62,838 nucleotides of DNA, taken from a virus (taxonomy: Duplodnaviria; Caudoviricetes). The stretch lies in IMG/VR virus record IMGVR_UViG_3300042444_000200, positions 1 through 62,838 of that record, one strand, 5' to 3'. The notes below the pieces were generated by a model. That model was given only the letters and a program-made list of their open reading frames with translations. It made no database searches and had not been told where the DNA came from. Positions 24,737 to 39,218 of this stretch are shown here, one piece after another (the first letter of the stretch is position 1; each line of letters begins with the position of its first letter). The position numbers and the translations under genes were made by a program.

Positions 24737-25060
24737 ATGACCCACGCAGAATCCCGTGCCCGCCGTGCCCTTGTCCCCACCCTGTTCCGCAAGGGGGCCA
24801 CAGTCAAGGGCATCGCCCGCCAGTTGAAAGTCCACGAGTACTACGTCCAGTCCATCCTCCGGCAGGCTGGCGTTGATCCGACCGAGTACTCCACCCGTGC
24901 CCGGAACGCAGAGATCAGGCGGCTGCGGATGGAGGGCTGGAGCCCGAGCGTTCTGGCGGAGGAGTTCGGCCTGACTCAAGGCCGCATCTCCCAGATCACT
25001 GGCCCCGTCCGCAAGGCGGACATCCTCGCACACGCTGCGGCGGAAGGGCTGGTGGCCTGA
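24737..25060 (+). CDS. Tandem helix-turn-helix DNA-binding protein
   Basis: G.TVKGIARQLKVHEYYV and RNAEI...GWSPSVLAEEFGLTQGRISQI. Confidence 0.8.
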   Translation: MTHAESRARRALVPTLFRKGATVKGIARQLKVHEYYVQSILRQAGVDPTEYSTRARNAEIRRLRMEGWSPSVLAEEFGLTQGRISQITGPVRKADILAHAAAEGLVA

Positions 25061-25411: not shown

Positions 25412-26548
25412 ATGACAAACGCATGGCTTGATCACAACGCCCCTTACTACTGTGCCCTTCAGGTTGTCCCCTCCCTTGCGGAAGGGTTCTGCGGCGAGGG
25501 CAAGACGCAGATCGCTGCCTCGTTGAGCAAGGCATTGAACCGCAGGTTCGTGCTGCTCATCGCCAGCCAGTGTGCCCCCGAAGATGTGGCTGGTATGCCA
25601 GCCCCCGACAACAAGTCGGGTGTCACCCGGATGCTACCCCCGTACTGGTACGAGGATGTCAAGGGGCCGGGCGGGTTCCTGTTCGCTGACGAGATGACCA
25701 CGCCAGTCCCTTCGGTGCGTGCCCCCTTCCTCTCCGTGTTCTCGGAGTTCAAGGTCGGCCAGTACCACATGCACCCCGACACCATCGTGTGCGGTGCGTT
25801 CAACCCGGCAGACCTCGCCCCCAACGGCAGTCCGCTGGAGCCAGCGATGGCGAACCGCTTCTTCCACCACAAGTGGCAGATGAACAAGGACGCTTGGCTC
25901 TCCGGCGTGTGCGACCCGGCGACGCCGCTGAACTGGAAGGCACCCGAGTTCCCCATCGTGCCGTCGAACTGGCAGGACTATCTCGGTATCTGGTCGCCGC
26001 TCGTTGGTGAGTTTCTCCGCTCACACGACGGGCTGTACACGCAGATGCCGAAGGACGGCGAACTCGCCTTCGCTTCCTATCGAACGTGGACGTACGCCAT
26101 CCGCTGCCTTGCCGCAGCAGAGGCGTCGGGCGCTGAGATGTACGAGAACAACAGCGTCGTCCGCAAGATGGTAGCCGGGTGCGTCGGGGTCAACGCAGCC
26201 CACCAGTTCTGTGAGTGGATGCGTACCCGGAACCTCGCCCGCATCGACGACCTGCTCGATGGCACGGCGGTGTTCAAGCACGACGACAACCGACCGGACA
26301 TCACGCTGTGCGTGGCTGCCGCAATCACCACTGCGGTCGGCCTGCCCAGCAAGTTCACGCCGGATCGGTGGGATCGTGCGGCTGCGATCATCGGCCAGAT
26401 CGGAACCGAGTGCAGTCCTGAGATTGCCCTCAAGCACAACAACAAACTCAAGCAGGCCGCCACTTCCAACGGCTACCGGCCGAAGGCTGCGGCACTCAAG
26501 CCCCTGCTTGACCTGATGGACACGGTCGATGCACTGCTCGCCAAGTAA
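25412..26548 (+). CDS. MoxR-like AAA+ ATPase
   Basis: Walker A GFCGEGKT, Walker B FLFADEM, PAMANRF arginine finger. Confidence 0.88.
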   Translation: MTNAWLDHNAPYYCALQVVPSLAEGFCGEGKTQIAASLSKALNRRFVLLIASQCAPEDVAGMPAPDNKSGVTRMLPPYWYEDVKGPGGFLFADEMTTPVPSVRAPFLSVFSEFKVGQYHMHPDTIVCGAFNPADLAPNGSPLEPAMANRFFHHKWQMNKDAWLSGVCDPATPLNWKAPEFPIVPSNWQDYLGIWSPLVGEFLRSHDGLYTQMPKDGELAFASYRTWTYAIRCLAAAEASGAEMYENNSVVRKMVAGCVGVNAAHQFCEWMRTRNLARIDDLLDGTAVFKHDDNRPDITLCVAAAITTAVGLPSKFTPDRWDRAAAIIGQIGTECSPEIALKHNNKLKQAATSNGYRPKAAALKPLLDLMDTVDALLAK

Positions 26549-26610
26549 CTAACCAACACCCGCCCCGCCCCCTTGCACAACGCAGGGGGGCGGGCACAGA
26601 AGGAGGGACA

Positions 26611-27132
26611 ATGGCTCTCAAGATCAACAACGTCTGGAAGAAATGGGGCGTCCGCCTATGGAGCCCATTCAAAAGCACATACACAACCTCATGCCGGAAG
26701 CGTACGTTCGAGCAGGCTGTGGAACTGGGGTACCAAGAGGTGGCGAAACTGCGGGAGGAGATTGCCCCGCATCCCCACCGATTCACGTTCAAGCCCGACG
26801 AGGTTCCGAACGTAGACGTAGGGTTCGTCACGGTTGACGTCGTGATGGAGTTGAAGGGCTCGGTCTGGATAGATCGGGGCCTTCGATTCACTCAGACTTC
26901 GCCAGCGGGGCTGCGATGTGCATACCACACCAGTAGAGGTGCTGACACGTTCGCATCCGCTGCACGCATCAAGCGTGGAGGCGAGGCGTACGTTTCACTC
27001 GACCCGTACCTGTACGACATGGGCACAAAGAGTCAGTCGCATTACCTCCGGCTGGCAGAGGCCCTCTCCCAAGCAGAAGAGTATCTCAAGGAGCATTCAG
27101 TTTTCTGGAACGCATTTCGACACACGGCATAG
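26611..27132 (+). CDS. Hypothetical protein
   Basis: AAGGAGG SD. Confidence 0.7.
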   Translation: MALKINNVWKKWGVRLWSPFKSTYTTSCRKRTFEQAVELGYQEVAKLREEIAPHPHRFTFKPDEVPNVDVGFVTVDVVMELKGSVWIDRGLRFTQTSPAGLRCAYHTSRGADTFASAARIKRGGEAYVSLDPYLYDMGTKSQSHYLRLAEALSQAEEYLKEHSVFWNAFRHTA

Positions 27133-27142
27133 GAGGCCACCC

Positions 27143-27418
27143 ATGATTCGGACACCACACTTCACACTGACCGACGCACAACTCGACTCCCTCGTGGACG
27201 CCCTTGTCTACGCCCTCGATGACATCGGCGAGTACATCGACTACCTCCACAAGGAGTCACTCAAGGAAGATGCCAACGACGCAGACCTCGACGATGCAAT
27301 CATGTTTGCAGAAGAGGATCGCAGTCGGTGGACGTTCCTGCGTGACGAGTTGCAGGACATGATCGACGCACGACCCAAGTTGACAATCGTCAAGCCATTC
27401 AACCCGGAGCACAACTGA
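27143..27418 (+). CDS. Acidic hypothetical protein
   Basis: AGGAGG SD; start MIRTPHF. Confidence 0.7.
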   Translation: MIRTPHFTLTDAQLDSLVDALVYALDDIGEYIDYLHKESLKEDANDADLDDAIMFAEEDRSRWTFLRDELQDMIDARPKLTIVKPFNPEHN

Positions 27419-28788
27419 TGAACTTCACAGAATCCCGCACGCGGATCGGCCAGTTCCGCGTCGCAGCAGGTGATGCCATGTCGTACATGGGCACCTACAT
27501 CTACGCCCTGATCCCGATTGAAAGACCGGGCATCGGCACGATGGCGGTTGACAAGTACGGCAGGCTGTACCACGACCCCGCCTACACCAACACAGTCTCG
27601 CTTGAGACCGGCATGTGGACGGTACTGCACGAGTCGCTTCACCTCGTGTTCGACCACGCTGGCATGGCAGAGCGGATCATTGGCAAGGCACCCACCAACG
27701 TGCAAGCAAACGCATGGAACTTTGCGTGCGACATGGTGGTCAACGAAATCCTCCGGCAGTACCTATCGCACGCACCGGAGGGGATCGTTACGGCTGGGCG
27801 GTTTGGCCTGCCGCCGAAGCGGACGGCTATCGAGTACTACCACATGCTGATGGACATCAACGACAACCAACAGAAGGAACAGGGCGATGACACGCAAGAC
27901 CAACAAGACGACGAGCAAGGCGAGCAGCAGGACGACGAGCAAGGCGACGGCGGCGAGGGAGACGAGAGCGAGGAGCCGGGCACTGAACGACCTAGCGATG
28001 AGGATGGGAGTGACGGCGGCGATCCTGATGCGGACGGCCCAAGCGATAGCGTGGGAGGCGAACCAGAACTCACCGACCACGAAGGCAAGGGCGGGTCGTG
28101 CAGCGACGGGCAACCCCGCGACTACGAACTCCCGGCCGACGACTCGTGGGAGGACAGGTCGTTCTCGATGACCGCCGACCTCGAAGCCAAGTGCGAGGAG
28201 ACTGGGTGGGGCAGCGTGCCCGGCGAACTGCGTGTCGCCCTCGATGCGAAGGTCAGGCCGCAGCCCGACCCCTTCGATGTCCTGCGTGCGGCGTGCTGCC
28301 GTGCGGTGGCATCGCCGGTCGGGTCGCCGGACTTTACCTACCGTCGCATGAGCAGGCGTCAGGTCGAGGATGCACCACGCCTGAAGGGTGTGATCAAGAC
28401 CACGCCCAGTGCCATCGTGGTACTGGATACCTCCGGCTCGATGACCAACCGCGAGACGCAGGACAAGGCCCTGACTGTGGTGGCCTCCGCCCTGCGGCGG
28501 CTGCGGTCAGTGAAGGTGATCTGCGGTGACACGCACATCGCCAGCAACAAGACCGTGACCAACCTCAAGCAGGTGGACTGGGCTGGCGGCGGCGGCACCA
28601 GCATGAGGCGAGTGTTGGAGGAGGCGGATCGGATCGAGAAGCCCGATGCCATCGTCCTCATCACGGACGGTTACACCGATTGGCCCGAGCGGCTGCGTGC
28701 TAGGCTGGTCGTTGCGTTGACTGAGGACAGGCCGACCCCATCGTGGGCGAAGTCGGTGCTGGTCAAGAAGAAGGAGGTGACACAGTGA
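27418..28788 (+). CDS. Metallopeptidase-vWA protein (DUF2201-like)
   Basis: HESLH (HExxH), acidic linker, MIDAS DTSGS, GGGGT, ITDGY. Confidence 0.9.
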   Translation: MNFTESRTRIGQFRVAAGDAMSYMGTYIYALIPIERPGIGTMAVDKYGRLYHDPAYTNTVSLETGMWTVLHESLHLVFDHAGMAERIIGKAPTNVQANAWNFACDMVVNEILRQYLSHAPEGIVTAGRFGLPPKRTAIEYYHMLMDINDNQQKEQGDDTQDQQDDEQGEQQDDEQGDGGEGDESEEPGTERPSDEDGSDGGDPDADGPSDSVGGEPELTDHEGKGGSCSDGQPRDYELPADDSWEDRSFSMTADLEAKCEETGWGSVPGELRVALDAKVRPQPDPFDVLRAACCRAVASPVGSPDFTYRRMSRRQVEDAPRLKGVIKTTPSAIVVLDTSGSMTNRETQDKALTVVASALRRLRSVKVICGDTHIASNKTVTNLKQVDWAGGGGTSMRRVLEEADRIEKPDAIVLITDGYTDWPERLRARLVVALTEDRPTPSWAKSVLVKKKEVTQ

Positions 28789-29104: not shown

Positions 29105-29694
29105 CTGCGGCCATGCAACTGTGGAAGAACTTCTTCTTGGTCGGGTACTACAACCACCGTGCGGTAGCCCCGTGCCTGCTGCAAAAGCAACGCACTCCAG
29201 AGCGGGCGGTCGAGGCAGCGGAGCGGTACATCACTGACTCGTACCGGAAGCACAACTCGAATGCCAACGTGTACGGCGTGTACGTCAGTGCGTGCCCGGC
29301 ACAATGGCAGAAGGTTGGCGTGCAATGGGAGTCTGTGCTTGGCCCGCCCTTGTACAGCGACATGGACAGGCTGGCAGTGGGTGCCTCGAACTTTCTCTGG
29401 ACTCACGTTGCCGACAGGCGTGGGTTCCGGGAGGTCGAGTGCTACTCAAGGGAGCAGAAGGGTGAGGGCATACGCCCGCCACTCCTGTTCCCTCACCGCC
29501 TGATGCGGGTGCTGCATGTGCAGTGGAAGCATGGCAAAGACCTCTCGACCCTGTGGTCTCCGGCAGTGGAGGCCATTGCGTCGAGGCCAACCAAGTCGAA
29601 GCGGCTAGTGCTGGCACGAGATGCGTTCGTGGAACTGGCCGACCTGTGCAAAGAGCGTAACGCTTTCAACCTATCCTTCAGACACGGAGCGTGA
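29101..29694 (+). CDS. Hypothetical protein
   Basis: GGAGG SD; ATGA overlap. Confidence 0.65.
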   Translation: MTAAMQLWKNFFLVGYYNHRAVAPCLLQKQRTPERAVEAAERYITDSYRKHNSNANVYGVYVSACPAQWQKVGVQWESVLGPPLYSDMDRLAVGASNFLWTHVADRRGFREVECYSREQKGEGIRPPLLFPHRLMRVLHVQWKHGKDLSTLWSPAVEAIASRPTKSKRLVLARDAFVELADLCKERNAFNLSFRHGA

Positions 29695-29695
29695 C

Positions 29696-30517
29696 ATGGC
29701 AAAAGTCTACGGCTATGGGCGGCACAGCACCAACCACCAAGCCATCACGGAGGAGGTGCAACGGCAGCAGGTGGACGCCTACTGCAAGTACCAACTCCTC
29801 CCGAAGGGCGAGGAACTTGGCGACCCCTTCTGGTTCTACGATGCGGCAACGTCTGGCGGCAAGCCGCTGACTGAGCGGGAGCAGGGGCTGCGGATGTGGT
29901 GCGTGCTCCAGCCCGGTGACCACATCGTGGTTGCCAAGTTGGATCGTGCGTTTCGTTCGGTGATCGACGGCGTGAACTGCATCGAGATGCTCAAGGCAAA
30001 GGGCGTCCACCTACACATCCTCGACGTACACATCGACACCTCGTCTGCGATGGGGCAGTTCCATGTGACGATCATGCTGGCGTTCGCCCAACTCCAGCGG
30101 CAGTACATCTCCGACCGCACGAAGGAGGTGATGGCACGCAAGAAGGAGAGCGGCAAGTGGGTAGGCAACGGTGCCAACTCCGTGCCGTTCGGGTGGAAGA
30201 AGGCGGGCAAGCAGGGCTACCTCTTCAAGGACGAGGAGGAGCGGTCAAGGATCGAGCAGATACACCAGTGGCGGGAGGAGGGACTGAGCCTCTACTCCAT
30301 CTACTGCAAGGCGAACAGCAAGCAGTACCGCTGGGCACGGAAGGGCAGGTCGTGGGAACCCATGACCGTGAAGGCCGCACTCATTGCTCGGGATCGGGGG
30401 TATCCGAAGGTGATACCCAAGTCGCTTCTACGCACCCCCGTAGTTCACGGAGTGCCGCTTCCAGCCGACGCTGTAGCGTGCGAGGGTCTCGACCCTGCTC
30501 CCGTGCAATCTCCGTGA
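29696..30517 (+). CDS. Serine recombinase (resolvase/invertase family)
   Basis: YGYGRHST catalytic serine; SGG...R; GDHIVVAKLDRAFRS; ISDRTK. Confidence 0.92.
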   Translation: MAKVYGYGRHSTNHQAITEEVQRQQVDAYCKYQLLPKGEELGDPFWFYDAATSGGKPLTEREQGLRMWCVLQPGDHIVVAKLDRAFRSVIDGVNCIEMLKAKGVHLHILDVHIDTSSAMGQFHVTIMLAFAQLQRQYISDRTKEVMARKKESGKWVGNGANSVPFGWKKAGKQGYLFKDEEERSRIEQIHQWREEGLSLYSIYCKANSKQYRWARKGRSWEPMTVKAALIARDRGYPKVIPKSLLRTPVVHGVPLPADAVACEGLDPAPVQSP

Positions 30518-31079: not shown

Positions 31080-31460
31080 TTACCGGCGGGCACGCCATGC
31101 ACGGGCACGGTCAAGCATTCGACCGTACTTGCCACCCCCCGCTTCGCCGCCTTCGGCCGTGACTTCTTCGAGGGGTTCGTACTCGATGACCTCTTGGTCT
31201 TTCGGCTTCTCATCCGTGAGCCACCCGTAGGCGATGATGACGGCTGGTACTACGCCGAGTGCGAGTGCCGCCACCAACAGGAACCACACGTTCTTCCGGG
31301 CCCACTCGACCGAGACCTCCTGCTTCCGTGCAGGTGGCTCAACTGGGGCAGGGGCTGGGGCTGGCCTGTCGAACAGGCCGACCCTCACCTGCGGCGGGTC
31401 GAATGGGTGGTGGATAACACCGTCCCGACCGTCCTTACCGTCCGGCATCATAACCTCCAT
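31080..31460 (-). CDS. Single-pass membrane protein
   Basis: Hydrophobic segment VWFLLVAALALGVVPAVIIAYGW. Confidence 0.65.
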   Translation of the reverse strand: MEVMMPDGKDGRDGVIHHPFDPPQVRVGLFDRPAPAPAPVEPPARKQEVSVEWARKNVWFLLVAALALGVVPAVIIAYGWLTDEKPKDQEVIEYEPLEEVTAEGGEAGGGKYGRMLDRARAWRARR

Positions 31461-31595
31461 TGGCGTGCGAGGCTATACGTCCGTACACATTCCGATCCCT
31501 AGCGCAACGTGCGTTACATTAGGGTTGAATGTGCGGGCGACTGGGGAAACGCACGCTGTCTCAGGGCTGACGCTCGGGGCTACCCAGTTTATGGC

Positions 31596-31960
31596 CTATT
31601 GGCCCGCCAGAAGGCTCTGCGCCCGGAGGGGTGTGGCATACCGCCCTGATCCCGGATCGGCCGTCTCGCACGCACTGAGGAAGCGAGAGAGGGACTCCCT
31701 TGCTGGGCCCGGCCGGAGCCCCAACTCCTCGCAGCATTCCTCGAACGGCAGCAGCCCGCCACCCTCTAGCCACATCTCGGCAACCGCCCGCTGGCGGGCT
31801 ACCTCCCGGACGTAGGAGTTGTCAGCCACCGACCGCCGGAGTTCGTGCGTGTTCAGCACCGACCTGCCGTCCTCGCCCACCTCAGACAGGAGGCGGGCCG
31901 TGTGCTGGAGCATGGAACCACAGAGCAGGCGGTACGCCCCCTCGATCTCCTCGCCCGTCA
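31596..31960 (-). CDS. Hypothetical protein (start uncertain)
   Basis: AEMWLEGGGLLPFEECCEELGLRP helical motif; the ORF-track start overlaps the upstream gene. Confidence 0.55.
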
Positions 31961-32233
31961 GTCCGGGTTCAGTTCTTGAGGTATCGTCGGGATGAAACAG
32001 ACGAGTTGTTCCGGGTGCAACTCCTCGCAGTCCTCTCCCCTCCAGTACCACTCCTCGTTCGACCTCGCCGTCCCCCGATCCAATACGCCCACAAACGCGG
32101 TCTGCGTCCTCCTGTCGAACACCAGATACTCGAAGCCGTTTCGCAGGTAAGCCTGCACTTTTCCTAGAACGTGCCATCGGTGACCCTCAATCTCTGCGTG
32201 ATAAAACTCTGGGGAATACATCTCCAACGCCAT
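31958..32233 (-). CDS. Hypothetical protein
   Basis: AGGAG SD; lies within the operon. Confidence 0.65.
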   Translation of the reverse strand: MALEMYSPEFYHAEIEGHRWHVLGKVQAYLRNGFEYLVFDRRTQTAFVGVLDRGTARSNEEWYWRGEDCEELHPEQLVCFIPTIPQELNPD

Positions 32234-32236
32234 CGC

Positions 32237-32596
32237 TCACTCCTGTCGTGGTGGTGGTAGACATCCGGGCAGACGCTCGTGCCCCGCATTCAGTTCAGGA
32301 TATGCCTCCTGTGACTGACATGCAAACAATGCGTTCCAAGCCATGTGACCAAGATGGTCATCACTGCGGTCGCCAGATAAGTAGGCGTAGGCATGGGCAA
32401 TCGCGTGGTTCAGGTACACATGGACGGGCAGGCCCCGCTCGTGATTGAACGCACCGTACTTTTCAACACCCACTGCCGCTGCCTCCGCACAACGCCGCAA
32501 CCCTACGGGCGAGAGCAAGTCCCACCTCGCACCGAGTGCCGTCCTCTTGGCACCCGTCTCGTACACCTCTGTCTCACCGTGAACTGTGCTTTCCAT
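32237..32596 (-). CDS. dATP/dGTP diphosphohydrolase-like protein (DUF5664)
   Basis: ETGAKR..RWDLL...G.EKYG..N..RG...H......DHLGH.AWN signature. Confidence 0.8.
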   Translation of the reverse strand: MESTVHGETEVYETGAKRTALGARWDLLSPVGLRRCAEAAAVGVEKYGAFNHERGLPVHVYLNHAIAHAYAYLSGDRSDDHLGHMAWNALFACQSQEAYPELNAGHERLPGCLPPPRQE

Positions 32597-32607
32597 GTCA
32601 ACACTCC

Positions 32608-33087
32608 TCAGTTTGCCATCGAACCTAGACTCATCTTCAACTCCGAGAGAGGACGCAGTGCAGACTTGGGCACGAAGTAAGCGGGCTCATAGCCCCCGTG
32701 ATTCTTCAGCCACTGCTCCTGCCTGCCGTCCTCACACATGATCCAGCCATGTACCTGAAAGTCTGGGGCCTCGCCCGTCACAAGGACGTACGGCCTGCCA
32801 GCCGGGTCATCCTTGCGGATGATCAAGTCCCAGTCGTGGTTGCTGCGGGTGCGAACCTCGACGCCAGCAACATCGGACTTCCCCTTGAAGGTGTTGATGT
32901 CGGCCGTCCAGTACACACCCATGCACTTGGCGTACGCCATCTCACCGCAGGCACCCAAGATGTGGGCATCCCACGACGAGCCAGCGTCGAACCTACGCTT
33001 GCGGTTGTCGGCCATAGCGTGGACGTTGCGAAGGACACCCTCCTCCGCACCACGCCTGACCTCGTGCCAGTCGAGAGTCACTCGCAT
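32608..33087 (-). CDS. PD-(D/E)XK-like phage protein
   Basis: GACGEMAYAK...SDV...EVRT...VHGWI. Confidence 0.65.
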   Translation of the reverse strand: MRVTLDWHEVRRGAEEGVLRNVHAMADNRKRRFDAGSSWDAHILGACGEMAYAKCMGVYWTADINTFKGKSDVAGVEVRTRSNHDWDLIIRKDDPAGRPYVLVTGEAPDFQVHGWIMCEDGRQEQWLKNHGGYEPAYFVPKSALRPLSELKMSLGSMAN

Positions 33088-33419
33088 CTGCCGCCCTCCT
33101 TCACTGTGCGAACCAGTTGGTGCAGGTCATCGAGCCGCACGGTCAGGAGCCAGTCAGCCCCGTTCTTCCGGTGGCACACGACGGGCAACTTCTTCTGGGG
33201 CGAGGCGTCGCTCACTGCCTGATCCATGACAGCGTGGATGTTCAGCCGCTGGCACCGCTTGCTCTCAACGAACAGGCCGGGCAACTCCGACACCTCAACG
33301 TCACTGTCTCCGGCGGCACCGCAGAACTGCTGCGTCCTGCGAGATGAGTAGCCCATGTCGCGGAACTTCTCTGCCAGTTCACGCTCACCGGCAGCACCTT
33401 TGGCACGGCTATTGGTCAC
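33078..33419 (-). CDS. Holliday junction resolvase (PD-(D/E)XK)
   Basis: NSRAKGAAGERE...RRTQQFCG...DV...VESKR; GTG start at 33419. Confidence 0.82.
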   Translation of the reverse strand: MTNSRAKGAAGERELAEKFRDMGYSSRRTQQFCGAAGDSDVEVSELPGLFVESKRCQRLNIHAVMDQAVSDASPQKKLPVVCHRKNGADWLLTVRLDDLHQLVRTVKEGGRCE

Positions 33420-33774
33420 GGTTGGCGGCCCTCTCTTCTTCAGCCCAGTCGGGGATGCTGAACACAAGGTCGGGAAACGAGCGTCGATGTCGTAGTCCAG
33501 CAAGGTAATCAAGATCGACCTCGCCATCCTCCTGACGCTTCGCCTCCAATATAACACCCATGTCAATCGACTTTCTTTCTCCTCCACTGTGATACCCGTA
33601 GTGACAATCACGGCACAGAAGGATGAGGTTCCGATTGTCATGCGGGTTCTTGCCACGCCGACCTTGAATGTGATGGAGTTCGAGCGTCTTGCCCGGCCTG
33701 AACTTCCTCCAGTGGCACACGGCACATCGGTCGTGCGACTCCGCGTACCCCGAGAGGTCAGCGTTCTTCTTCAT
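33409..33774 (-). CDS. HNH endonuclease
   Basis: CAVC...LELHHI...NLILLCRDCH...H. Confidence 0.85.
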   Translation of the reverse strand: MKKNADLSGYAESHDRCAVCHWRKFRPGKTLELHHIQGRRGKNPHDNRNLILLCRDCHYGYHSGGERKSIDMGVILEAKRQEDGEVDLDYLAGLRHRRSFPDLVFSIPDWAEEERAANRDQ

Positions 33775-34450
33775 TGTTCACCTTCAGGAGGACACAGTCC
33801 TTCACGATGGGCAGCGAGTCGAAGTCCTCCGCGATGTAGCGGCACCGCTCAAGCAGCACCCCGTAGAACTCCACGAGTTGACCAACGGGGTACTCGTCGC
33901 CCTCCCTGCGGCACACCTCGTCCACCATGTAGGCGGAGTACACGGCGAGTTCGCCCATGAACTCCTCCGTCTCACGCCGCCTCGTCCAGTTCAACTCCTG
34001 CCGCACCATCGCACCGTGCTGGTACGCGATCAGTTCATCGAACAGGTACAGCGGGTACGAACCCCAGTCCTTCTTCGAGTCCACGAGGTAGGTCTTGAAC
34101 GTCTTGCCACGCATTGCCGCCGGGATGGTCGCAGCCACATGGTCGAGCGTCGTCTTCTCGGTCAGCGGCACACGCCATGCCTCACCCTCAAGGGTGTAGA
34201 AGGCACGGTGCTTCGTGCCCGACAGGCGGGAGTTCACGAAGTGACTGGCCTCGTGAGCCCAAGTGATGGGGCACTCATCGAAGCGGGCTTCGGTGGCGTC
34301 CTTCTCGGGGAGACGGGCGAGCACATCCCGGAGCGTCTCCGGCATGCCGCCCTCAATCTTCCTGATCGGCGTCGCCTCGATGTACAGAATCTCCCCTGCC
34401 TGTACGGCAATGGGGAGCAACGCAATAGCCGCAGTCACAAGTCGTTTCAT
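33758..34450 (-). CDS. Exported HExxH protein (putative metallopeptidase)
   Basis: Signal peptide MKRLVTAAIALLPIAVQA; TWAHEASH with a downstream DE. Confidence 0.65.
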   Translation of the reverse strand: MKRLVTAAIALLPIAVQAGEILYIEATPIRKIEGGMPETLRDVLARLPEKDATEARFDECPITWAHEASHFVNSRLSGTKHRAFYTLEGEAWRVPLTEKTTLDHVAATIPAAMRGKTFKTYLVDSKKDWGSYPLYLFDELIAYQHGAMVRQELNWTRRRETEEFMGELAVYSAYMVDEVCRREGDEYPVGQLVEFYGVLLERCRYIAEDFDSLPIVKDCVLLKVNNEEER

Positions 34451-34601
34451 TTCGCACTTCCTTTTGCTGGGATTGGAGGCCAGCCTTGACCTCCGCTAAC
34501 TCTTTCATGGCCCTAGCCAACTGGGCTTCGAGCCACGCCATACGCATTTCTGCGTAGCGGACGTACTTCTCATCAGCGACCTGCTGTTTGTCTTCGCTCA
34601 T
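34353..34601 (-). CDS. Small coiled-coil protein
   Basis: Overlaps both neighbours. Confidence 0.5.
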   Translation of the reverse strand: MSEDKQQVADEKYVRYAEMRMAWLEAQLARAMKELAEVKAGLQSQQKEVRNETTCDCGYCVAPHCRTGRGDSVHRGDADQED

Positions 34602-36150
34602 TTGCCACCCTGTTGAGTTCGCGTTTCACCGCCTCCACCAGCCACTCATTGCCGGGCCTCTTGCTCGCCCCCTTGATCCAGCCCTTGAGGTAGTCGGCCG
34701 GGATCATGCGGATCGGGATTCCCTTATAGGGCCCCCAGATCATGCGGGCCTCTCGCCTCTTGGGGATGTCGCTCGTGCCCTTCTTGAAGGCGTCCACCCA
34801 CTGGCTGTCCACCTCCGCACGGAACACCAGCGGGCGGCGGCGTGCCAGTTCTTCCTGACGGTGGATCACTGCTGCCTGCCGCTCCTGCTCCATCTCGGCA
34901 GCGACGGCTGCGTCCACATCCTCCATCGTGACCGGCTCGCCCCTGTCGATCATGTCCTCGACGTACGCCTTACGCTTCTTGGTGGGCGGCACGAACACAT
35001 CGACGGCACTGCAAATGCAGTGGCACTTGCTGGCGTCGGTGTAGTCGTACACATCGCAGTTGGGCTTGGCGTCGTTGCGGATCGCAAGGCGGCGGCTGTA
35101 GTCGCTCGGTGCATCCTTGAACACATCGTTGGACGAGGGCCGGGCACCACGCCCCAGCATCTGGATGTACTTGGGCAGGCTCTTGGTTGGGCGAAGGTTG
35201 TGAATCTCGCCTACCTGTGGGCTGTCCCAGCCGGTAGTAAGGCAGCCCACGTTCACGATCAGTTCGGCGTCGCCCTCCTCGAAGCGGGCCAACTGCTCGA
35301 CCCGCTTCTCCTTCGGCATCTCGCTGTCAACGACGGCACACTGGATGCCGTGCCGGTTCTCAAGGATGTCCTGCATGGCCCGTGCATTGCGGATGCCGGT
35401 CGTGAACACCACGCCCTTCCGCTTGTGGTTGGCGGCGATCATGGCCGTCTGCTCCAGCATCACGCCCTCCTCGCCCATGATCCTGTCGAGTTCCTCAACG
35501 CTGAAGTCGTGGGCACCCGTGCTACCGAAGCGACTCATGTCGAGTTTCTTCAGCACGATGCGTCGGATGTTGAACGGAACCAGCCACCCCCACTCGATGC
35601 CCTGCCTCATTCCGATTGACACTGGGTGGCAGTCGTACTGGTGCAGCGGCGACACGCCGGTCGTGCGGTAGTGGGGGGTGGCTGACATGCCGATGATCTT
35701 CGTGCCCGCTGCCTTGAAGGCGGCGACCAACTCAGCCTGACGGGGGCCAAGCGAAGCGTGTGCTTCGTCGATGATCAGCAACTCCGTCTTGCCCAAGAAC
35801 CTCTCGTACCTGTTGTTCGAGATGAGGCTCGCCAGTGACGCCACCGTGACCGGGCACTCAGGGTCTGCCATCAGCGGGCCCTGTTCGATCTCCGGGACGT
35901 ACCGGCGATACCTCTTGACGGTGGACACCACCTGCCCGACTGTTGCGTCGTACGGCGTGGAGATGAGCACCTTGTCAAACTGCTCCGAGAGGGCGGCGGC
36001 TATCGCCGTCTTGCCCATACCCGTCGCCACCTCGATGAACGCACTCTGCCGAGAGCGGAGCGCGTTCATGCCACCGTCTACGGAGTGCTGCTGGTAATCA
36101 CGCAGCAGCATCTTCCGCTCGGATGGCTTGTCAAACAGGGAGAGAGTCAT
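34573..36150 (-). CDS. Superfamily 2 (DExH, ResIII-like) helicase
   Basis: LRDYQ, ATGMGKT, DEAH, SATP, TTGWD, QMLGRGAR; C-terminal WGPYKG..I..IP..YL. Confidence 0.93.
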   Translation of the reverse strand: MTLSLFDKPSERKMLLRDYQQHSVDGGMNALRSRQSAFIEVATGMGKTAIAAALSEQFDKVLISTPYDATVGQVVSTVKRYRRYVPEIEQGPLMADPECPVTVASLASLISNNRYERFLGKTELLIIDEAHASLGPRQAELVAAFKAAGTKIIGMSATPHYRTTGVSPLHQYDCHPVSIGMRQGIEWGWLVPFNIRRIVLKKLDMSRFGSTGAHDFSVEELDRIMGEEGVMLEQTAMIAANHKRKGVVFTTGIRNARAMQDILENRHGIQCAVVDSEMPKEKRVEQLARFEEGDAELIVNVGCLTTGWDSPQVGEIHNLRPTKSLPKYIQMLGRGARPSSNDVFKDAPSDYSRRLAIRNDAKPNCDVYDYTDASKCHCICSAVDVFVPPTKKRKAYVEDMIDRGEPVTMEDVDAAVAAEMEQERQAAVIHRQEELARRRPLVFRAEVDSQWVDAFKKGTSDIPKRREARMIWGPYKGIPIRMIPADYLKGWIKGASKRPGNEWLVEAVKRELNRVANERRQTAGR

Positions 36151-36467
36151 GCTACGGCACCCCCGTAGGAGACCCGCGACCGGAGGCGTGGGCTGTAACT
36201 ACCCACCCACCTGCGGGCTGCTTCCTCCGGCGTCCACGCCGCCTTGATCTCCTCCGCCCTCTGACGAATCTCCTCCGGTGTCGGATCGACCTTCCGCTGG
36301 AGCCTTCGGTCTTCGGGCTCGACGCCTTCTTCGCGTTCCATTCTCCGCCGGAACGGGTACAGGGTGATCCCGCTCAGGCTCGTCGCCACCTCCGGTGACA
36401 CTCCCTCCATCACCAACCTCCTTGCTTGCTGGTACCGAATCTCGTAGTTCGCTGGTCGCCCCTTCAT
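36147..36467 (-). CDS. Hypothetical DNA-binding protein
   Basis: HTH-like N-terminus; DPTPEEIRQRAEEIKAAW motif. Confidence 0.65.
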   Translation of the reverse strand: MKGRPANYEIRYQQARRLVMEGVSPEVATSLSGITLYPFRRRMEREEGVEPEDRRLQRKVDPTPEEIRQRAEEIKAAWTPEEAARRWVGSYSPRLRSRVSYGGAVA

Positions 36468-36642
36468 CTGTCGCCTCCTTGAAGAAATCGTTGAACGTCA
36501 CCATCGCCTGCAACGCCCTCACCTCCGTAATGAGGAGAGGCACCCATGCCCGTGTGATCTGCACCGTCAGCGTGGGATTCAGAACCACCTCGTCGCTCGC
36601 GGCCCATTCATCGAGCCGCTTCAAGTCGCTCTCTTGGATCAC
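36199..36642 (-). CDS. Hypothetical protein
   Basis: GTGA-coupled to the ERF gene; its 3' part overlaps the next gene. Confidence 0.45.
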   Translation of the reverse strand: MIQESDLKRLDEWAASDEVVLNPTLTVQITRAWVPLLITEVRALQAMVTFNDFFKEATDEGATSELRDSVPASKEVGDGGSVTGGGDEPERDHPVPVPAENGTRRRRRARRPKAPAEGRSDTGGDSSEGGGDQGGVDAGGSSPQVGG

Positions 36643-37328
36643 GCTTTTGACTCCGTGTTGGGCGGGGTCTTGGCCCGCAACTTCTCACGCTCCTTCTTCA
36701 GCAACTCCATCTGGCTCTCGGTCATCTCGCCGCTGCCGACACGCATGGCGACGCGGGCAATGACCTCGTCGCGTTCCTGCTCCGTCGAGACGGCCTTCAA
36801 CTTCTTGAGTGCCATCTCCTCCAGCCGGAAGGACTGGGCAGACGAGGTCTTCGTCGCCTCTGTCGCAGCCACGCCGTCGTCATCGTTCTCCGCTGCGATG
36901 CCGCAGAGGCAGGCGATGTGGAGACGACGCATGTAGGTGCAGTAGGCGAGGTACGCCTGCGGCTTCATCGGGTCGGCAGCGATGCGGCTGACCGACCGGG
37001 TGAACTGGCCCGACTTGTGACCCAGCGTCGTGACGAGGAACTCCTCCTCGCCCACGATCTGCGTCGTGCTCTTGAGAGCCAGCCCGTGAGCACTGTTGAT
37101 CGGACGAACGGCATCGAGCAGGGCATCGACGGTGGCGTACATCCCGAATGCACCCTTCGCATTCTTGAGTACGGCCGGGTACTCGCCCTGCGCCTTCGCA
37201 AGGTCTTCGTACAGCAGTTCAGTGGTCTCCGACTCGTTCGCATATGGATCGAACGGACGGTGGCGAATCGGCTTGTTGGTCGGCACGAACATTGGGGTTT
37301 GCATTTCTGCGTCCTTTGGGGTTTCCAT
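36639..37328 (-). CDS. ERF-family single-strand annealing protein
   Basis: LAKAQ...K...YAT...HGL...TTLGHKSGQ...TYMRR...GIAAENDDDG. Confidence 0.88.
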   Translation of the reverse strand: METPKDAEMQTPMFVPTNKPIRHRPFDPYANESETTELLYEDLAKAQGEYPAVLKNAKGAFGMYATVDALLDAVRPINSAHGLALKSTTQIVGEEEFLVTTLGHKSGQFTRSVSRIAADPMKPQAYLAYCTYMRRLHIACLCGIAAENDDDGVAATEATKTSSAQSFRLEEMALKKLKAVSTEQERDEVIARVAMRVGSGEMTESQMELLKKEREKLRAKTPPNTESKA

Positions 37329-37333
37329 TCCTC

Positions 37334-38326
37334 TCACTCCTCGTCGCCGTAAACGTGCGGCGGCATGTACAGTTCGGTGATCGCTCCGTACGAAGACGGC
37401 ACCCACGAATCGAGTGCCATGCGGTCTTCGTATTCCTCGATGAGCCGGTCGAGTTTCCGCTGGCCCATCAGCACGAAGCGGCGGGGCAGCGTCACGCAAT
37501 GCACCTCGCACTCGCCCACCGTGCTGGCGACAACGAAGGTCATGGGCTCGTCGGAGAAGCCAGCGAGAGAAGCACCCTCGCGGTAAACGGCGGCTTGCAA
37601 TCCGTAGCCGTACTCACGGCACGAATGCCACCACTGCTTCAGCGGGAACTGGTCGCGGGTGGTCTTGAAGTCGATGAGCCTGCCGTCTTCGAGGACGGCG
37701 TCGGGGCGGCAGCGAAGGCCGGTGCCGGTGCCACGCTTCCAGATGATCGAGATTTCCTTCTCGGCCACCTGCTCCCACAACTCGACGAAGGCACGGTTCG
37801 CCATCGCCTGCTTGTGCTGGGCACGGAGTGTCTCTTCGTCGGACGGGGTGACGAGGATCGCGTCAGGCCCCTGCTCCTTGACCCAATCTTGGGCATCCTG
37901 CTTTGTGGAAAGCCCGCCGGAGCCAGTGCAGAACTTGGCAGGAACCCGCTTGGCTACGTCCCAGAAAACGGACGGCCCGATCTCCCAGAAGGAGTGGAAC
38001 TTTGTTCCGTATTGAGTCGCCTCTGTCCCGGCGTGAGACTTGTGGCGAAGGACATGGTGCCGGTGGAACTGGGCAGGGCTCTTGCCCAATACCCGCAGGC
38101 TCGATGTCGAGAGTTCTGGTCGGGCGTGGTAGGCGGCGTTCGCCTCACCTCGCACGACTGCCACGAGAGTCGCGGCAGGGCATCCCTCAAAAGTCGGGGC
38201 GATCGGATTCGAACCGACGACCTCTACGTCCCGAACGTAGTCGTCGATGCCCTGCGTGAGTGGATCTGTCGTGGCGAGGAGGTTCTTCGTCATGTCAGTC
38301 TCAGTGCTTGCGTCTTCTGCTGTCAT
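37334..38326 (-). CDS. RecE/exonuclease VIII-like PD-(D/E)XK nuclease (DUF3799-like); start at 38326, 38293 or later
   Basis: YHA...LSTSSL, GTKFHS, RCRPD, IDFKTT, YGLQAAVY. Confidence 0.88.
   Translation of the reverse strand: MTAEDASTETDMTKNLLATTDPLTQGIDDYVRDVEVVGSNPIAPTFEGCPAATLVAVVRGEANAAYHARPELSTSSLRVLGKSPAQFHRHHVLRHKSHAGTEATQYGTKFHSFWEIGPSVFWDVAKRVPAKFCTGSGGLSTKQDAQDWVKEQGPDAILVTPSDEETLRAQHKQAMANRAFVELWEQVAEKEISIIWKRGTGTGLRCRPDAVLEDGRLIDFKTTRDQFPLKQWWHSCREYGYGLQAAVYREGASLAGFSDEPMTFVVASTVGECEVHCVTLPRRFVLMGQRKLDRLIEEYEDRMALDSWVPSSYGAITELYMPPHVYGDEE
38194..38240 (-). other. attP core: 3' half of tRNA-Pro(CGG)
   Basis: CTACG-TTCGGGA-CGTAG anticodon arm, AGGTC, GTCGG-TTCGAAT-CCGAT T-arm, CGCCCCG-A. 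No 5' half. About 145 bp from the integrase start. Confidence 0.88.
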
Positions 38327-38384
38327 CGGTATCTTTGCTGAACCCGGTACGGGGGTAGTGTACAGCGGTTCAGTAGGGTCGTCA

Positions 38385-39218
38385 ATGATAGGGTTAGCGG
38401 AAAGGTATTTGATGGGGAGGGATGTCTCGCGTGGTCACGCGGGCAACATCAGGCGAGCGGCTGCTCGGATGTACGCGGCAGGCATCACGCCTGACAACAT
38501 CGACGGGCAACTGGTCACCACTTGGCTCTCCTCCTTGAGGGCTACGCTGTCGGCAAGAAGCGTTTCGAGTGAACGCAACCTTGCACTCACATTGTGGAAG
38601 TATGGCTACGACGAAGACCTTGTCAAGAATCCGGTTCGCGGAGTTCAGAAGATCAAGGTGCCTCGCCGTGTCACTCGTGCCTTCACACGCCATCAGTGTA
38701 CGGATGCTGTCAAGCAGATTTCTTCTTCGGACTTTGGGAAGTTCAGGAAGAGTGGATGCCCGAAGTCTCTATGGCTAGAGGCTTGGTATCGGACTGCATA
38801 TGAGACCGGCATCAGATTCACCGACCTCTATATGCTGCGGCACGATTCTTTAGTGGACGGCGGCATCGCCATCGTCGCCAGCAAGACCAACGGCATCGTC
38901 ATCAAGCGGATCACCGCCGAGACGCAGGGCCTGCTCGACCGTCTTATAGAGATGTCACCGGACGGCACCGTCTTCAGTTGGGCTGTCTCTAGGCGTTGGG
39001 CCTTTGCCAACATCAAGGCAGCGTTCAAGGCAATCGGTCTGGATACTGGGCGTACCCAGTGGCTTCGTAGGTCTGGCGCTACGCACGCAGAAATGGCACA
39101 GCCCGGAAGTGCGGCACGTTATCTTTGCCACGCGACGCCGGGACTGGCCGAGCGCCACTATTTGGATCACACGCAACTTTTGGGACAGGCACCCGCTCCC
39201 CCTCCGCTCGATCAGTAG
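38385..39218 (+). CDS. int: Tyrosine recombinase / integrase
   Basis: TGIRFTDL (R), SKT (K), WLRRSGAT, LCH, HY (Y); adjacent to a tRNA-derived att site. Confidence 0.88.
   Translation: MIGLAERYLMGRDVSRGHAGNIRRAAARMYAAGITPDNIDGQLVTTWLSSLRATLSARSVSSERNLALTLWKYGYDEDLVKNPVRGVQKIKVPRRVTRAFTRHQCTDAVKQISSSDFGKFRKSGCPKSLWLEAWYRTAYETGIRFTDLYMLRHDSLVDGGIAIVASKTNGIVIKRITAETQGLLDRLIEMSPDGTVFSWAVSRRWAFANIKAAFKAIGLDTGRTQWLRRSGATHAEMAQPGSAARYLCHATPGLAERHYLDHTQLLGQAPAPPPLDQ

What the first reader, a model, noticed from the sequence alone, without database searches (positions are those of the whole stretch)
38159..38385. attP lies inside the first gene of the recombination/replication operon: possible integration-operated lytic switch
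Seen: the 47-nt tRNA-Pro(CGG) 3' half (38240-38194) is read in frame as YVRDVEVVGSNPIAP within the RecE-like ORF. The only in-frame ATGs before the nuclease domain (38326, 38293) are upstream of it, and no good SD follows it. This ORF heads the whole minus-strand operon (ERF, helicase, resolvase, sigma-like factor), and int is transcribed divergently. No CI-like (HTH plus S24 peptidase) repressor is recognisable. Known precedent: some mycobacteriophages such as BPs have attP inside the repressor gene. Inference: here integration would cut the replication and late-activator operon away from its promoter and start codon, so DNA topology rather than a repressor could hold lysogeny.
Basis: partly seen in the sequence, partly recalled or inferred. 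Interest (0 to 1): 0.78.

Follow-up and report, generated by a model that had tools for sequence, protein, structure and literature searches.

The report
Phage attachment site inside nuclease gene
A freshwater phage keeps its chromosome-docking site, a piece of a host proline-tRNA gene, inside the translated start of its first recombination gene, so inserting into the host should cut that gene from its start.

Summary
Window 38240-38194 (minus strand) is the anticodon arm, T arm and 3' acceptor strand of a tRNA-Pro(CGG). It lies in frame (residues 30-44) in a 330-codon RecE/exonuclease-VIII-like ORF, divergent from a 268-aa tyrosine integrase.

The layout is a family trait. In 24 related viral contigs the same spot holds a piece of tRNA-Pro, tRNA-Met or tRNA-Gly (3' or 5' part). 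In all 25 genomes the frame is open through the piece back to an upstream ATG. In 11 of 17 checked there is no ATG/GTG/TTG between the piece and the nuclease fold. T stems co-vary and the same piece is read in different phases, so openness is conserved, not the peptide.

Most likely the piece is the attP core in a disordered, translated leader. Integration would then part the nuclease and its coupled operon from start codon and upstream promoter, and excision would rejoin them.

Not shown: any lysogen junction, transcript or protein. This phage also has GTG starts after the piece. The claim that topology replaces a repressor is untested: no CI-like protein in 50 ORFs, but one HTH protein and many orphans.

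It is a new variant of integration-dependent gene control. First readers of this scan noted the same layout on six other genomes, none followed up.

The parts
38412..39218 (+). Tyrosine integrase, 268 aa, short form
   Evidence: PHROG integrase phrog_1, E 1.3e-13. Pfam Phage_integrase is weak: E 6e-4, 20.1 bits, below the cut-off of 27.1. R135, K158, R219/R220 and Y250 are invariant in 8 relatives (A4). GAAAGG lies 7 nt before the ATG.
38357..38385 (-). Sigma-70-like promoter candidate facing the nuclease: TTGACG, 17 nt, TACACT
   Evidence: 9 of 12 consensus matches. It is the only hit on either strand in 31400-38420, where 1.2 hits are expected by chance, so position is the argument and not statistics.
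38291..38326 (-). Two in-frame ATGs (38326-38324 and 38293-38291) that open the leader
   Evidence: Both are positionally conserved in the tRNA-Pro-type relatives L013, L015 and L016 ('ataccgATG', N-termini MT.SD.S...DM). No SD-like motif precedes either.
38194..38240 (-). tRNA-Pro(CGG) anticodon arm, T arm and acceptor 3' strand: inferred attP core
   Evidence: In other lake metagenome runs, 5' halves of tRNA-Pro type join exactly at 38240 (loose ends).
38229..38235 (-). Anticodon loop TTCGGGA: inferred crossover segment (codons V31-D33)
   Evidence: Inference. Sister phages carry either the 3' or the 5' part of one tRNA, and the two parts overlap only at the anticodon loop and stem. Class I tRNA-targeting integrases exchange strands in the 7-bp anticodon loop (PMC1762012, passages).
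38175..38255 (.). Perfect 10-bp inverted repeat GCAGGGCATC / GATGCCCTGC flanking the piece
   Evidence: I19. It pairs in the RNA fold (z -1.5, not significant). It is not conserved in relatives. Role unknown.
38153..38164 (-). Alternative in-frame GTG starts (codons 55 and 58) after the piece
   Evidence: One public call uses 38164 (P0015). Both lie inside the first confident beta strand (residues 52-59) of the model.
37334..38326 (-). RecE/exonuclease-VIII-like PD-(D/E)XK nuclease ORF, 330 codons: disordered leader 1-48, fold from about residue 52
   Evidence: E191, D209, D219 and K221 are invariant (A1).
36639..37328 (-). ERF single-strand annealing protein; its ATG lies 5 nt after the nuclease stop
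   Evidence: Sequence: TGA-GAGGA-ATG.
31596..36467 (-). Rest of the co-directional operon: p106, DEAD/ResIII helicase, p230, HNH, PDDEXK_15, phrog_18407, dATP/dGTP diphosphohydrolase-like protein and small ORFs
   Evidence: The order is conserved in relatives.

Best explanation
The 47-nt tRNA-Pro(CGG) piece is the core of the phage attachment site used by the neighbouring tyrosine integrase. It sits inside a roughly 50-residue disordered N-terminal leader of the RecE-like nuclease, and that leader is translated. Its amino-acid sequence does not matter; only its openness does. Strand exchange, probably in the anticodon loop, would leave the promoter region, the ATG and the first ~31 codons at the int end of the prophage. 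The start-less nuclease body, with ERF, helicase and the rest, would end up at the other end, directly behind the rebuilt host tRNA-Pro gene. Excision rejoins them. The first gene of the recombination/replication operon can then be made in full only from the excised, circular genome, and probably also the genes coupled to it. Shown: the anatomy, the tRNA origin of the piece, family-wide conservation of the open frame, and the lack of downstream starts in most relatives. Inferred: attP function, the crossover place, the promoter, and the consequence for expression. Whether this helps hold lysogeny or only keeps a nuclease silent behind a strong tRNA promoter is open.
For: (1) The piece is tRNA-derived and matches real tRNA-Pro genes.
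(2) Synteny 'large virion gene -> <- int | leader+piece-nuclease -> helicase' holds in 7 of the 8 loci of the nuclease scan (L009 has neither int nor piece) and in 22 of 22 loci of the integrase scan. All 10 new contigs of the 20 stretches hit by the tRNA-Met-piece scan belong to the same family.
(3) Piece types, for the window and the 18 relatives typed: Pro(CGG) 3' in 4, Met(CAT) 3' in 8, Gly(CCC) 3' in 5, Gly(CCC) 5' in 2. Six more Met(CAT) 3' came. The four Pro pieces have four T stems with paired changes: GTCGG/CCGAT, GCACG/CGTGT, GGAGG/CCTCT, GCTGG/CCAGT. The first four Met-type loci aligned share a block invariant at 46 of 47 positions, against 64% mean column identity for that alignment as a whole.
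(4) In 25 of 25 non-redundant genomes the longest ORF through the piece is the nuclease ORF (23) or an HNH ORF (L027, L029). In L027 the stop of that HNH ORF overlaps the nuclease ATG as ATGA. All 25 have an ATG upstream of the piece.
(5) 11 of 17 continuous ORFs have no ATG/GTG/TTG between the piece and the conserved YH codon.
(6) An SD-like motif precedes an upstream ATG in 20 of 25. The spacer is 6-7 nt in 4 (L037, L044, L045, L047).
(7) The Pro piece is read in two phases, as is the Met piece. A Gly piece 1 nt shorter is offset by a spacer 1 nt longer.
(8) In the 40 codons before YH, stops by frame are 0/6/20 in 8 loci. The chance of an open frame is 0.18-0.46 per locus.
(9) The AF2 model has pLDDT under 50 for residues 1-48 and a first strand at 52-59, so a GTG start at 55 or 58 would clip it.
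(10) Distant exonuclease VIII homologues match only from residue 56-66 onward. Homologues without the piece start 9-17 residues before YH.
(11) A promoter-like site lies on the int side. The ERF start lies 5 nt after the nuclease stop.
Against: No attL or attR junction and no host tRNA-Pro(CGG) with the full 47-mer was found. The genome contigs protein scan found nothing and the 30-mer had no exact match there. The metagenome hits are other tRNA-Pro isoacceptors. In the 4 runs laid, no contig was seen joining a host 5' half to the nuclease side; only part of that table is shown. All 4 Pro-type genomes, this one included, have start codons after the piece, and one public gene call starts at GTG 38164. 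No SD-like motif precedes ATG 38326 or 38293. The promoter match is 9 of 12 and not above chance over 7 kb. In the Met-type phages int and the nuclease ATG are at most about 55 bp apart, back to back in L006, so promoters there must lie inside coding DNA and are unmapped. After integration the operon would lie behind a host tRNA promoter, and no U-tailed terminator follows the piece. Leader GC3 is lower than in the gene body in all 8 loci. The loci are related, so counts overstate independence.
Confidence: 0.6

Rival explanations
1. Neutral packing. The attP site has to sit next to int, between the promoter and start and the nuclease fold. The ORF is kept open across it only so that ribosomes cover this stretch (avoiding polarity) or for compactness. 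Splitting the gene on integration is a side effect with no regulatory use.
For: The leader is disordered and unconserved and is read in different phases. Leader GC3 is lower than in the gene body. An HNH gene can be inserted into it. Many temperate phages silence early genes with a repressor anyway.
Against: The layout persisted through at least four changes of tRNA target and through swaps between 3' and 5' parts. An intergenic attP would be simpler if the split had no value. In 11 of 17 genomes the only starts lie beyond the core.
Confidence: 0.22
2. In this phage the nuclease starts at GTG 38164 or 38155. The piece then lies in the 5' untranslated leader and the long ORF is an inherited but unused open frame. 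Integration would still cut off the promoter but not the coding sequence.
For: The GTGs exist in frame. P0015 is called as 276 aa. All four Pro-type genomes have downstream starts. No SD-like motif precedes the ATGs.
Against: No SD lies at a working distance from the GTGs either: GAGGG ends 19 nt before 38164. The GTGs lie inside the predicted first strand, residues 52-59. The N-terminal MT.SD.S...DM and both ATGs are conserved in L013, L015 and L016 at only 57-59% integrase identity. Eleven relatives have no such start.
Confidence: 0.12
3. There is no repressor at all, and the cut made by integration is the lysis-lysogeny switch.
For: No HTH+S24 protein among 50 ORFs scanned with Pfam. PHROGs gave only weak regulator-family matches, all for the HTH protein at 24737-25060 (best: late transcriptional activator, E 3.6e-07; weakest: transcriptional repressor phrog_769, E 0.0081), among 30 ORFs.
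Against: Most ORFs are orphans. An HTH protein exists at 24737-25060. The plus-strand early block at 16-31.5 kb and the late genes are not touched by the cut. The host tRNA promoter would face the operon.
Confidence: 0.05
4. The piece is not an attachment site. It is a relic, or a tRNA-like RNA element of the leader.
For: No junction has been seen. A 10-bp inverted repeat could close a tRNA-like fold.
Against: It always lies next to a tyrosine integrase. The target tRNA changes between lineages while each piece stays intact, with co-varying stems. The fold is not significant (z -1.5) and the repeat is not conserved.
Confidence: 0.03

Closest known systems
Integration-dependent immunity of mycobacteriophages BPs, Brujita and Charlie (Broussard and Hatfull; PMC3694055, section 4 read)
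   Same: attP lies inside a phage reading frame next to a tyrosine integrase, so the viral and prophage genomes encode different products. No excisionase is evident.
   Different: There attP lies in the 3' part of the repressor gene, and integration removes a degradation tag and activates the repressor. Here it lies in the 5' leader of a lytic-cycle nuclease, and integration would remove the start and promoter. No int-rep-cro cassette is present.
Tn916: transfer genes expressed only after circularisation (Celli and Trieu-Cuot 1998, as described in PMC5812530, passages read)
   Same: A gene block is promoterless while integrated and is joined to its promoter across the attachment site on excision.
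   Different: Tn916 is a conjugative element, not a phage. Its joint is intergenic, no reading frame crosses it, and its target is not a tRNA gene.
Class I tRNA-targeting tyrosine integrases such as phage L5 (PMC1762012 passages, citing Williams 2002, which was not read)
   Same: attP carries the tRNA from the anticodon stem to the 3' end, with crossover in the 7-bp anticodon loop, so the tRNA is rebuilt.
   Different: In those systems attP is described as non-coding. Here it is translated, and some sister phages carry the 5' part instead.
SSV1-type 'suicidal' integrases and Myxococcus phage Mx8 intP (recalled; PMC8371274 seen only in a search listing)
   Same: attP lies inside a gene of the element, which integration splits or alters.
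   Different: There the split gene is the integrase itself. Here int stays whole.
Lambda sib retroregulation (recalled)
   Same: Integration changes what lies beyond attP and so changes expression of a neighbouring gene.
   Different: sib acts on int mRNA stability from downstream. No coding frame is cut.

Membership tests
attP of a tRNA-targeting tyrosine integrase (anticodon-loop class) | A tyrosine recombinase gene lies next to the site | tested here: met
   The same adjacency is seen in 29 of the 30 locus rows returned by the two protein scans: 7 of 8 (L009 has neither int nor piece) and 22 of 22, some rows being the same contigs.
attP of a tRNA-targeting tyrosine integrase (anticodon-loop class) | The segment equals a host tRNA gene from the anticodon stem to the 3' end | tested here: inconclusive
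   The last 30-34 nt are identical to real tRNA-Pro genes. The full 47-mer with anticodon CGG was found in no record: the 47-mer was scanned exactly only in viral contigs, and its last 30 nt had no exact match in genome contigs.
attP of a tRNA-targeting tyrosine integrase (anticodon-loop class) | attL and attR junctions exist in lysogens | tested here: inconclusive
   None found.
attP of a tRNA-targeting tyrosine integrase (anticodon-loop class) | Strand exchange occurs in the anticodon loop | not testable with these tools
   Inferred from 3'-part and 5'-part sister phages whose pieces overlap only at the anticodon arm.
Integration-dependent immunity (BPs type) | attP lies inside the repressor gene, and integration removes a C-terminal degradation tag | tested here: not met
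   The gene crossed is a DUF3799/exonuclease VIII nuclease, and the site lies at its 5' end.
Integration-dependent immunity (BPs type) | A compact int-rep-cro cassette | tested here: not met
   Next to int lie the nuclease on one side and a roughly 430-bp gene-free stretch plus an 82-aa orphan on the other.
RecE-like / exonuclease VIII (DUF3799, PD-(D/E)XK) | A domain match above the curated cut-off and conserved acidic and lysine residues | tested here: met
   PF12684 E 4.6e-13 and PF12705 E 1.3e-07. phrog_412 E 5.8e-36. E191, D209, D219 and K221 are invariant.
Excision-gated operon (Tn916 type) | Genes are silent when integrated and transcribed across the joint when excised | not testable with these tools
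   No RNA run was listed. Only a promoter-like site on the int side supports it.

The most novel reading that the evidence does not exclude
A whole family of ~60-kb freshwater phages uses its own integration as a translational and transcriptional gate. The start codon and promoter of the early recombination/replication operon lie across attP. In the prophage the operon lies behind a host tRNA gene as an untranslatable read-through, so it is prone to termination. After excision, ribosomes that start at the leader ATG run through the tRNA piece and open the operon. The gate would be the main lock on lytic growth. It would explain why the frame has been kept open through every change of tRNA target, phase and tRNA half.
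Probability: 0.12. Interest if true: 0.85.

Novelty: new variant of a known kind. Interest (0 to 1): 0.62.

Why it matters
Known cases where integration rewires a phage's own genes are few: the BPs-type repressor, self-split integrases and lambda sib. Here attP crosses the 5' end of a lytic-cycle gene, and the layout persists in at least 25 genomes with three target tRNAs. If the split is functional, it is a second, independent design in which DNA topology gates phage development. It also bears on annotation: gene callers disagree on this start (276 to 362 aa in one 90% cluster) and would miss attP. The alternation of 3' and 5' tRNA parts, always in frame, offers a natural series for studying how integrases change target and how attP sites evolve.

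Tried and rejected
Host and lysogen search. The 47-mer gave no exact match in viral contigs. The family protein scan of genome contigs found none. The 30-mer gave none in genome contigs. The metagenome scan gave 3 contigs, all other tRNA-Pro isoacceptors.

Statements on their tRNA pieces rest on translations.

Sequencing runs: 24 rows in 21 studies, lake or freshwater metagenomes. No RNA holder was listed. Laying 4 runs showed only contigs. Contigs of X7 and X10 break at 38214-38218 inside the piece, as expected at a repeat shared with host tRNAs. No attL or attR contig was identified.

No close isolated phage exists: the best protein hits are under 30% identical.

The inverted repeat around the piece was dropped as a conserved feature. 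The leader RNA fold is not significant. No U-tailed terminator follows the piece.

Repressor hunt: Pfam on 50 ORFs and PHROGs on 30 gave no CI-like protein. This does not show absence.

Literature: searches (CC-licensed PMC and bioRxiv only) listed no paper describing attP inside a RecE-like nuclease gene. The JC1 paper (PMC9144972, passages) concerns a different case. Supplements were closed and not used.

Rows dropped before counts: L009 (distant nuclease, no int, no piece), L034 (no piece recognised), and loci judged duplicates by contig name or identical flanks: L014, L017, L020, L022, L023, L025, L026, L030-L032, L036, L038-L040, L043, L048-L054. L035 and L041 were dropped because the contig ends lie beside the piece. 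L016 was mis-framed, so its values come.
Full report
WHAT IS THERE. The window is a complete-looking 62.8-kb viral record. On the minus strand, 38240-38194 reads as the anticodon arm (anticodon CGG), variable loop, T arm and 3' acceptor strand of a tRNA-Pro. Rfam's tRNA model scores it 25.6 bits (E 0.0066), and ARAGORN finds no whole tRNA in the window. The last 30 nt occur exactly in three metagenome contigs. Each hit lies inside a full tRNA-Pro gene, with blastn identity running to 34 nt in two of them. In lake metagenome runs, tRNA-Pro-type 5' halves join exactly at 38240. The piece is therefore genuine tRNA sequence.

It lies in frame, as residues 30-44, in ORF 37334-38326(-). That ORF is a DUF3799/PD-(D/E)XK, exonuclease-VIII-like nuclease. 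Known relatives match only from residue 56-66 onward. A 268-aa tyrosine integrase starts 85 bp upstream on the other strand. In-frame ATGs lie at 38326 and 38293, before the piece. In-frame GTGs lie at 38164 and 38155, after it. The ERF gene starts 5 nt after the nuclease stop. A helicase, HNH, PDDEXK_15 and further genes follow on the same strand.

IS THE FRAME THROUGH THE PIECE REAL? This was tested on relatives. Three scans of viral contigs were run. The nuclease alignment gave 8 loci from 42 candidates. The integrase alignment gave 22 loci from 52 candidates. The tRNA-Met-type block gave 20 stretches. Apart from L009, which has neither int nor piece, every locus examined has the same order: large virion gene, then int on the opposite strand, then leader-nuclease and helicase.

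After dropping duplicates and truncated rows (listed under Tried and rejected), 25 genomes remain, with a tRNA piece at the same spot in each. The window and the 18 relatives typed carry Pro(CGG) 3' (4), Met(CAT) 3' (8), Gly(CCC) 3' (5) or Gly(CCC) 5' part (2). Six further Met(CAT) 3' genomes came.

The tRNA origin shows in the variation. The four Pro pieces have four different T stems with paired changes. The first four Met-type loci aligned share a 47-nt block that is invariant at 46 positions, against 64% mean column identity for that alignment as a whole.

In all 25 genomes the longest ORF through the piece is the nuclease ORF, and an ATG lies upstream of the piece. The two exceptions, L027 and L029, have an HNH ORF inserted after the piece. 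In L027 the leader reads through the piece into that ORF, whose stop overlaps the nuclease ATG as ATGA. An SD-like motif precedes an upstream ATG in 20 of 25 genomes, with a textbook 6-7 nt spacer in 4.

Of the 17 continuous ORFs examined for it, 11 have no ATG, GTG or TTG between the piece and the conserved YH codon. In those phages translation must begin beyond the piece.

The peptide itself is not conserved. The Pro piece is read in two phases (YVRDVEV.GSNP.AP versus ALRSGRRGR.F.S.RPD), and so is the Met piece. A Gly piece that is 1 nt shorter is offset by a spacer 1 nt longer.

A fixed 40-codon stretch before YH has 0, 6 and 20 stops in the three frames over 8 loci. Shuffled sequence stays open with probability 0.18-0.46 per locus. 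The loci are related, so these figures are not independent.

An AlphaFold model (10-row alignment, mean pLDDT 77.7) gives pLDDT under 50 for residues 1-48. Its first confident strand is at 52-59, which a GTG start at codon 55 or 58 would clip.

THIS PHAGE IN PARTICULAR. The case is weaker here than for the family. All four Pro-type genomes have start codons after the piece. No SD-like motif precedes their ATGs. Public gene calls for the window's 90% cluster range from 276 aa (GTG 38164) to 362 aa. In favour of the upstream start, both ATGs and an N-terminal MT.SD.S...DM are kept in L013, L015 and L016. Those phages share only 57-59% integrase identity with the window.

HOW IT MOST LIKELY WORKS. 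Sister phages carry either the 3' part or the 5' part of one tRNA: L002 versus L003/L005, and P0002 versus P0032-type proteins. The two forms overlap only at the anticodon arm. This fits the class of tRNA-targeting integrases that exchange strands in the 7-bp anticodon loop (PMC1762012, passages).

A crossover there would leave the promoter-like site at 38385-38357, the ATGs and about 31 codons next to int at one prophage end. The start-less nuclease, with ERF 5 nt behind its stop and the rest of the operon, would sit at the other end, right after the rebuilt tRNA-Pro. Excision restores the gene. Expression of this operon, or at least of its first gene, is therefore tied to the excised state. 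All of this step is inferred. No lysogen junction, transcript or protein start was seen.

One plausible use follows from the geometry. The operon lands behind a strong host tRNA promoter, and removing its start codon keeps a nuclease from being made there.

WHAT IS NOT SUPPORTED. The idea that topology replaces a repressor rests only on a negative search. No HTH+S24 protein was found in 50 ORFs by Pfam, and PHROGs on 30 ORFs gave only weak regulator-family matches, all for one HTH protein. Most ORFs are orphans, and that HTH protein sits at 24737-25060. The plus-strand early block and the late genes are not touched by the cut.

COMPARISON AND NOVELTY. The nearest known design is BPs-type integration-dependent immunity. 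There attP lies in the 3' part of the repressor gene, and integration removes a degradation tag (PMC3694055, section 4). Here the gene, the end of the gene and the predicted effect all differ, so it is not a member of that system.

Tn916 shows the same logic of genes joined to their promoter by circularisation (PMC5812530, passages). It is not a phage and no frame crosses its joint. Self-split integrases (SSV1 type, Mx8) and lambda sib are recalled parallels.

Five literature searches listed no description of attP inside a RecE-like nuclease gene. The library covers only CC-licensed PMC papers and bioRxiv.

First readers of this scan flagged the same layout on six other genomes. None was followed up, and they are not independent evidence.

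VERDICT. It is a new variant of a known kind. Confidence in the mechanism is about 0.6 and interest is 0.62.

Noticed in passing
L002 vs L003/L005; proteins P0002, P0032-P0039: Near-identical phages carry either the 3' part or the 5' part of the same tRNA in the leader. One 90% protein cluster shows three leader forms. The third (P0034, P0038) looks like a recombinant of the other two at the anticodon arm. In L003 and L005, 14 of the 18 nt upstream of the tRNA start are also conserved.
   Followed up: partly
L027 5938-6690, and L029 (reverse-complemented loci): An HNH-endonuclease-like ORF of about 650 bp is inserted right after the tRNA-Gly piece, with the tRNA end GCCCGCTTT repeated at the far side. 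The leader now heads this ORF, which ends ATGA-overlapped with the nuclease start.
   Followed up: partly
window 29621-30517 (+): A second recombinase: a 298-aa serine recombinase (Pfam Resolvase 1.1e-29; PHROG integrase or DNA invertase). Its role is unknown. L044 has a homologue.
   Followed up: no
window 24737-25060 (+): A 107-aa protein with two HTH motifs (HTH_23, Sigma70_r4, KorA-like; PHROG late transcriptional activator). It is the only recognisable regulator found.
   Followed up: no
window 38175-38184 and 38246-38255: A perfect 10-bp inverted repeat brackets the tRNA piece. It is not conserved in relatives. L004 and L008 have other 8-bp repeats there.
   Followed up: partly
window 38303-38356, seen in run X7: A close relative replaces these 54 nt, which include ATG 38326, with 111 other letters. 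This matches the longer, different N-termini of P0022 and P0023. The ATG at 38293 is the one kept in that cluster.
   Followed up: partly
window 32237-32596 (-): An N-terminal domain of dATP/dGTP diphosphohydrolase type (PF18909, 1.3e-14) at the end of the operon, conserved in relatives. No partner genes of a base-modification pathway were recognised.
   Followed up: no
window 25412-28788 (+): A weak AAA_3-like ATPase followed by a DUF2201 metallopeptidase/VWA protein, a pair of unknown role in the early block.
   Followed up: no
window 11816-12780 (-): A CAP (cysteine-rich secretory protein family) domain protein and an HNH_3 endonuclease at the head of the late block.
   Followed up: no
L035, L041, L044, L047, about 35 nt upstream of the Met piece: A conserved 9-bp-stem hairpin (GCGTCAGGG...CCCTGACGC) sits in the leader region of one Met-type subgroup. 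In L044, ARAGORN calls a whole tRNA-Met across the piece.
   Followed up: no
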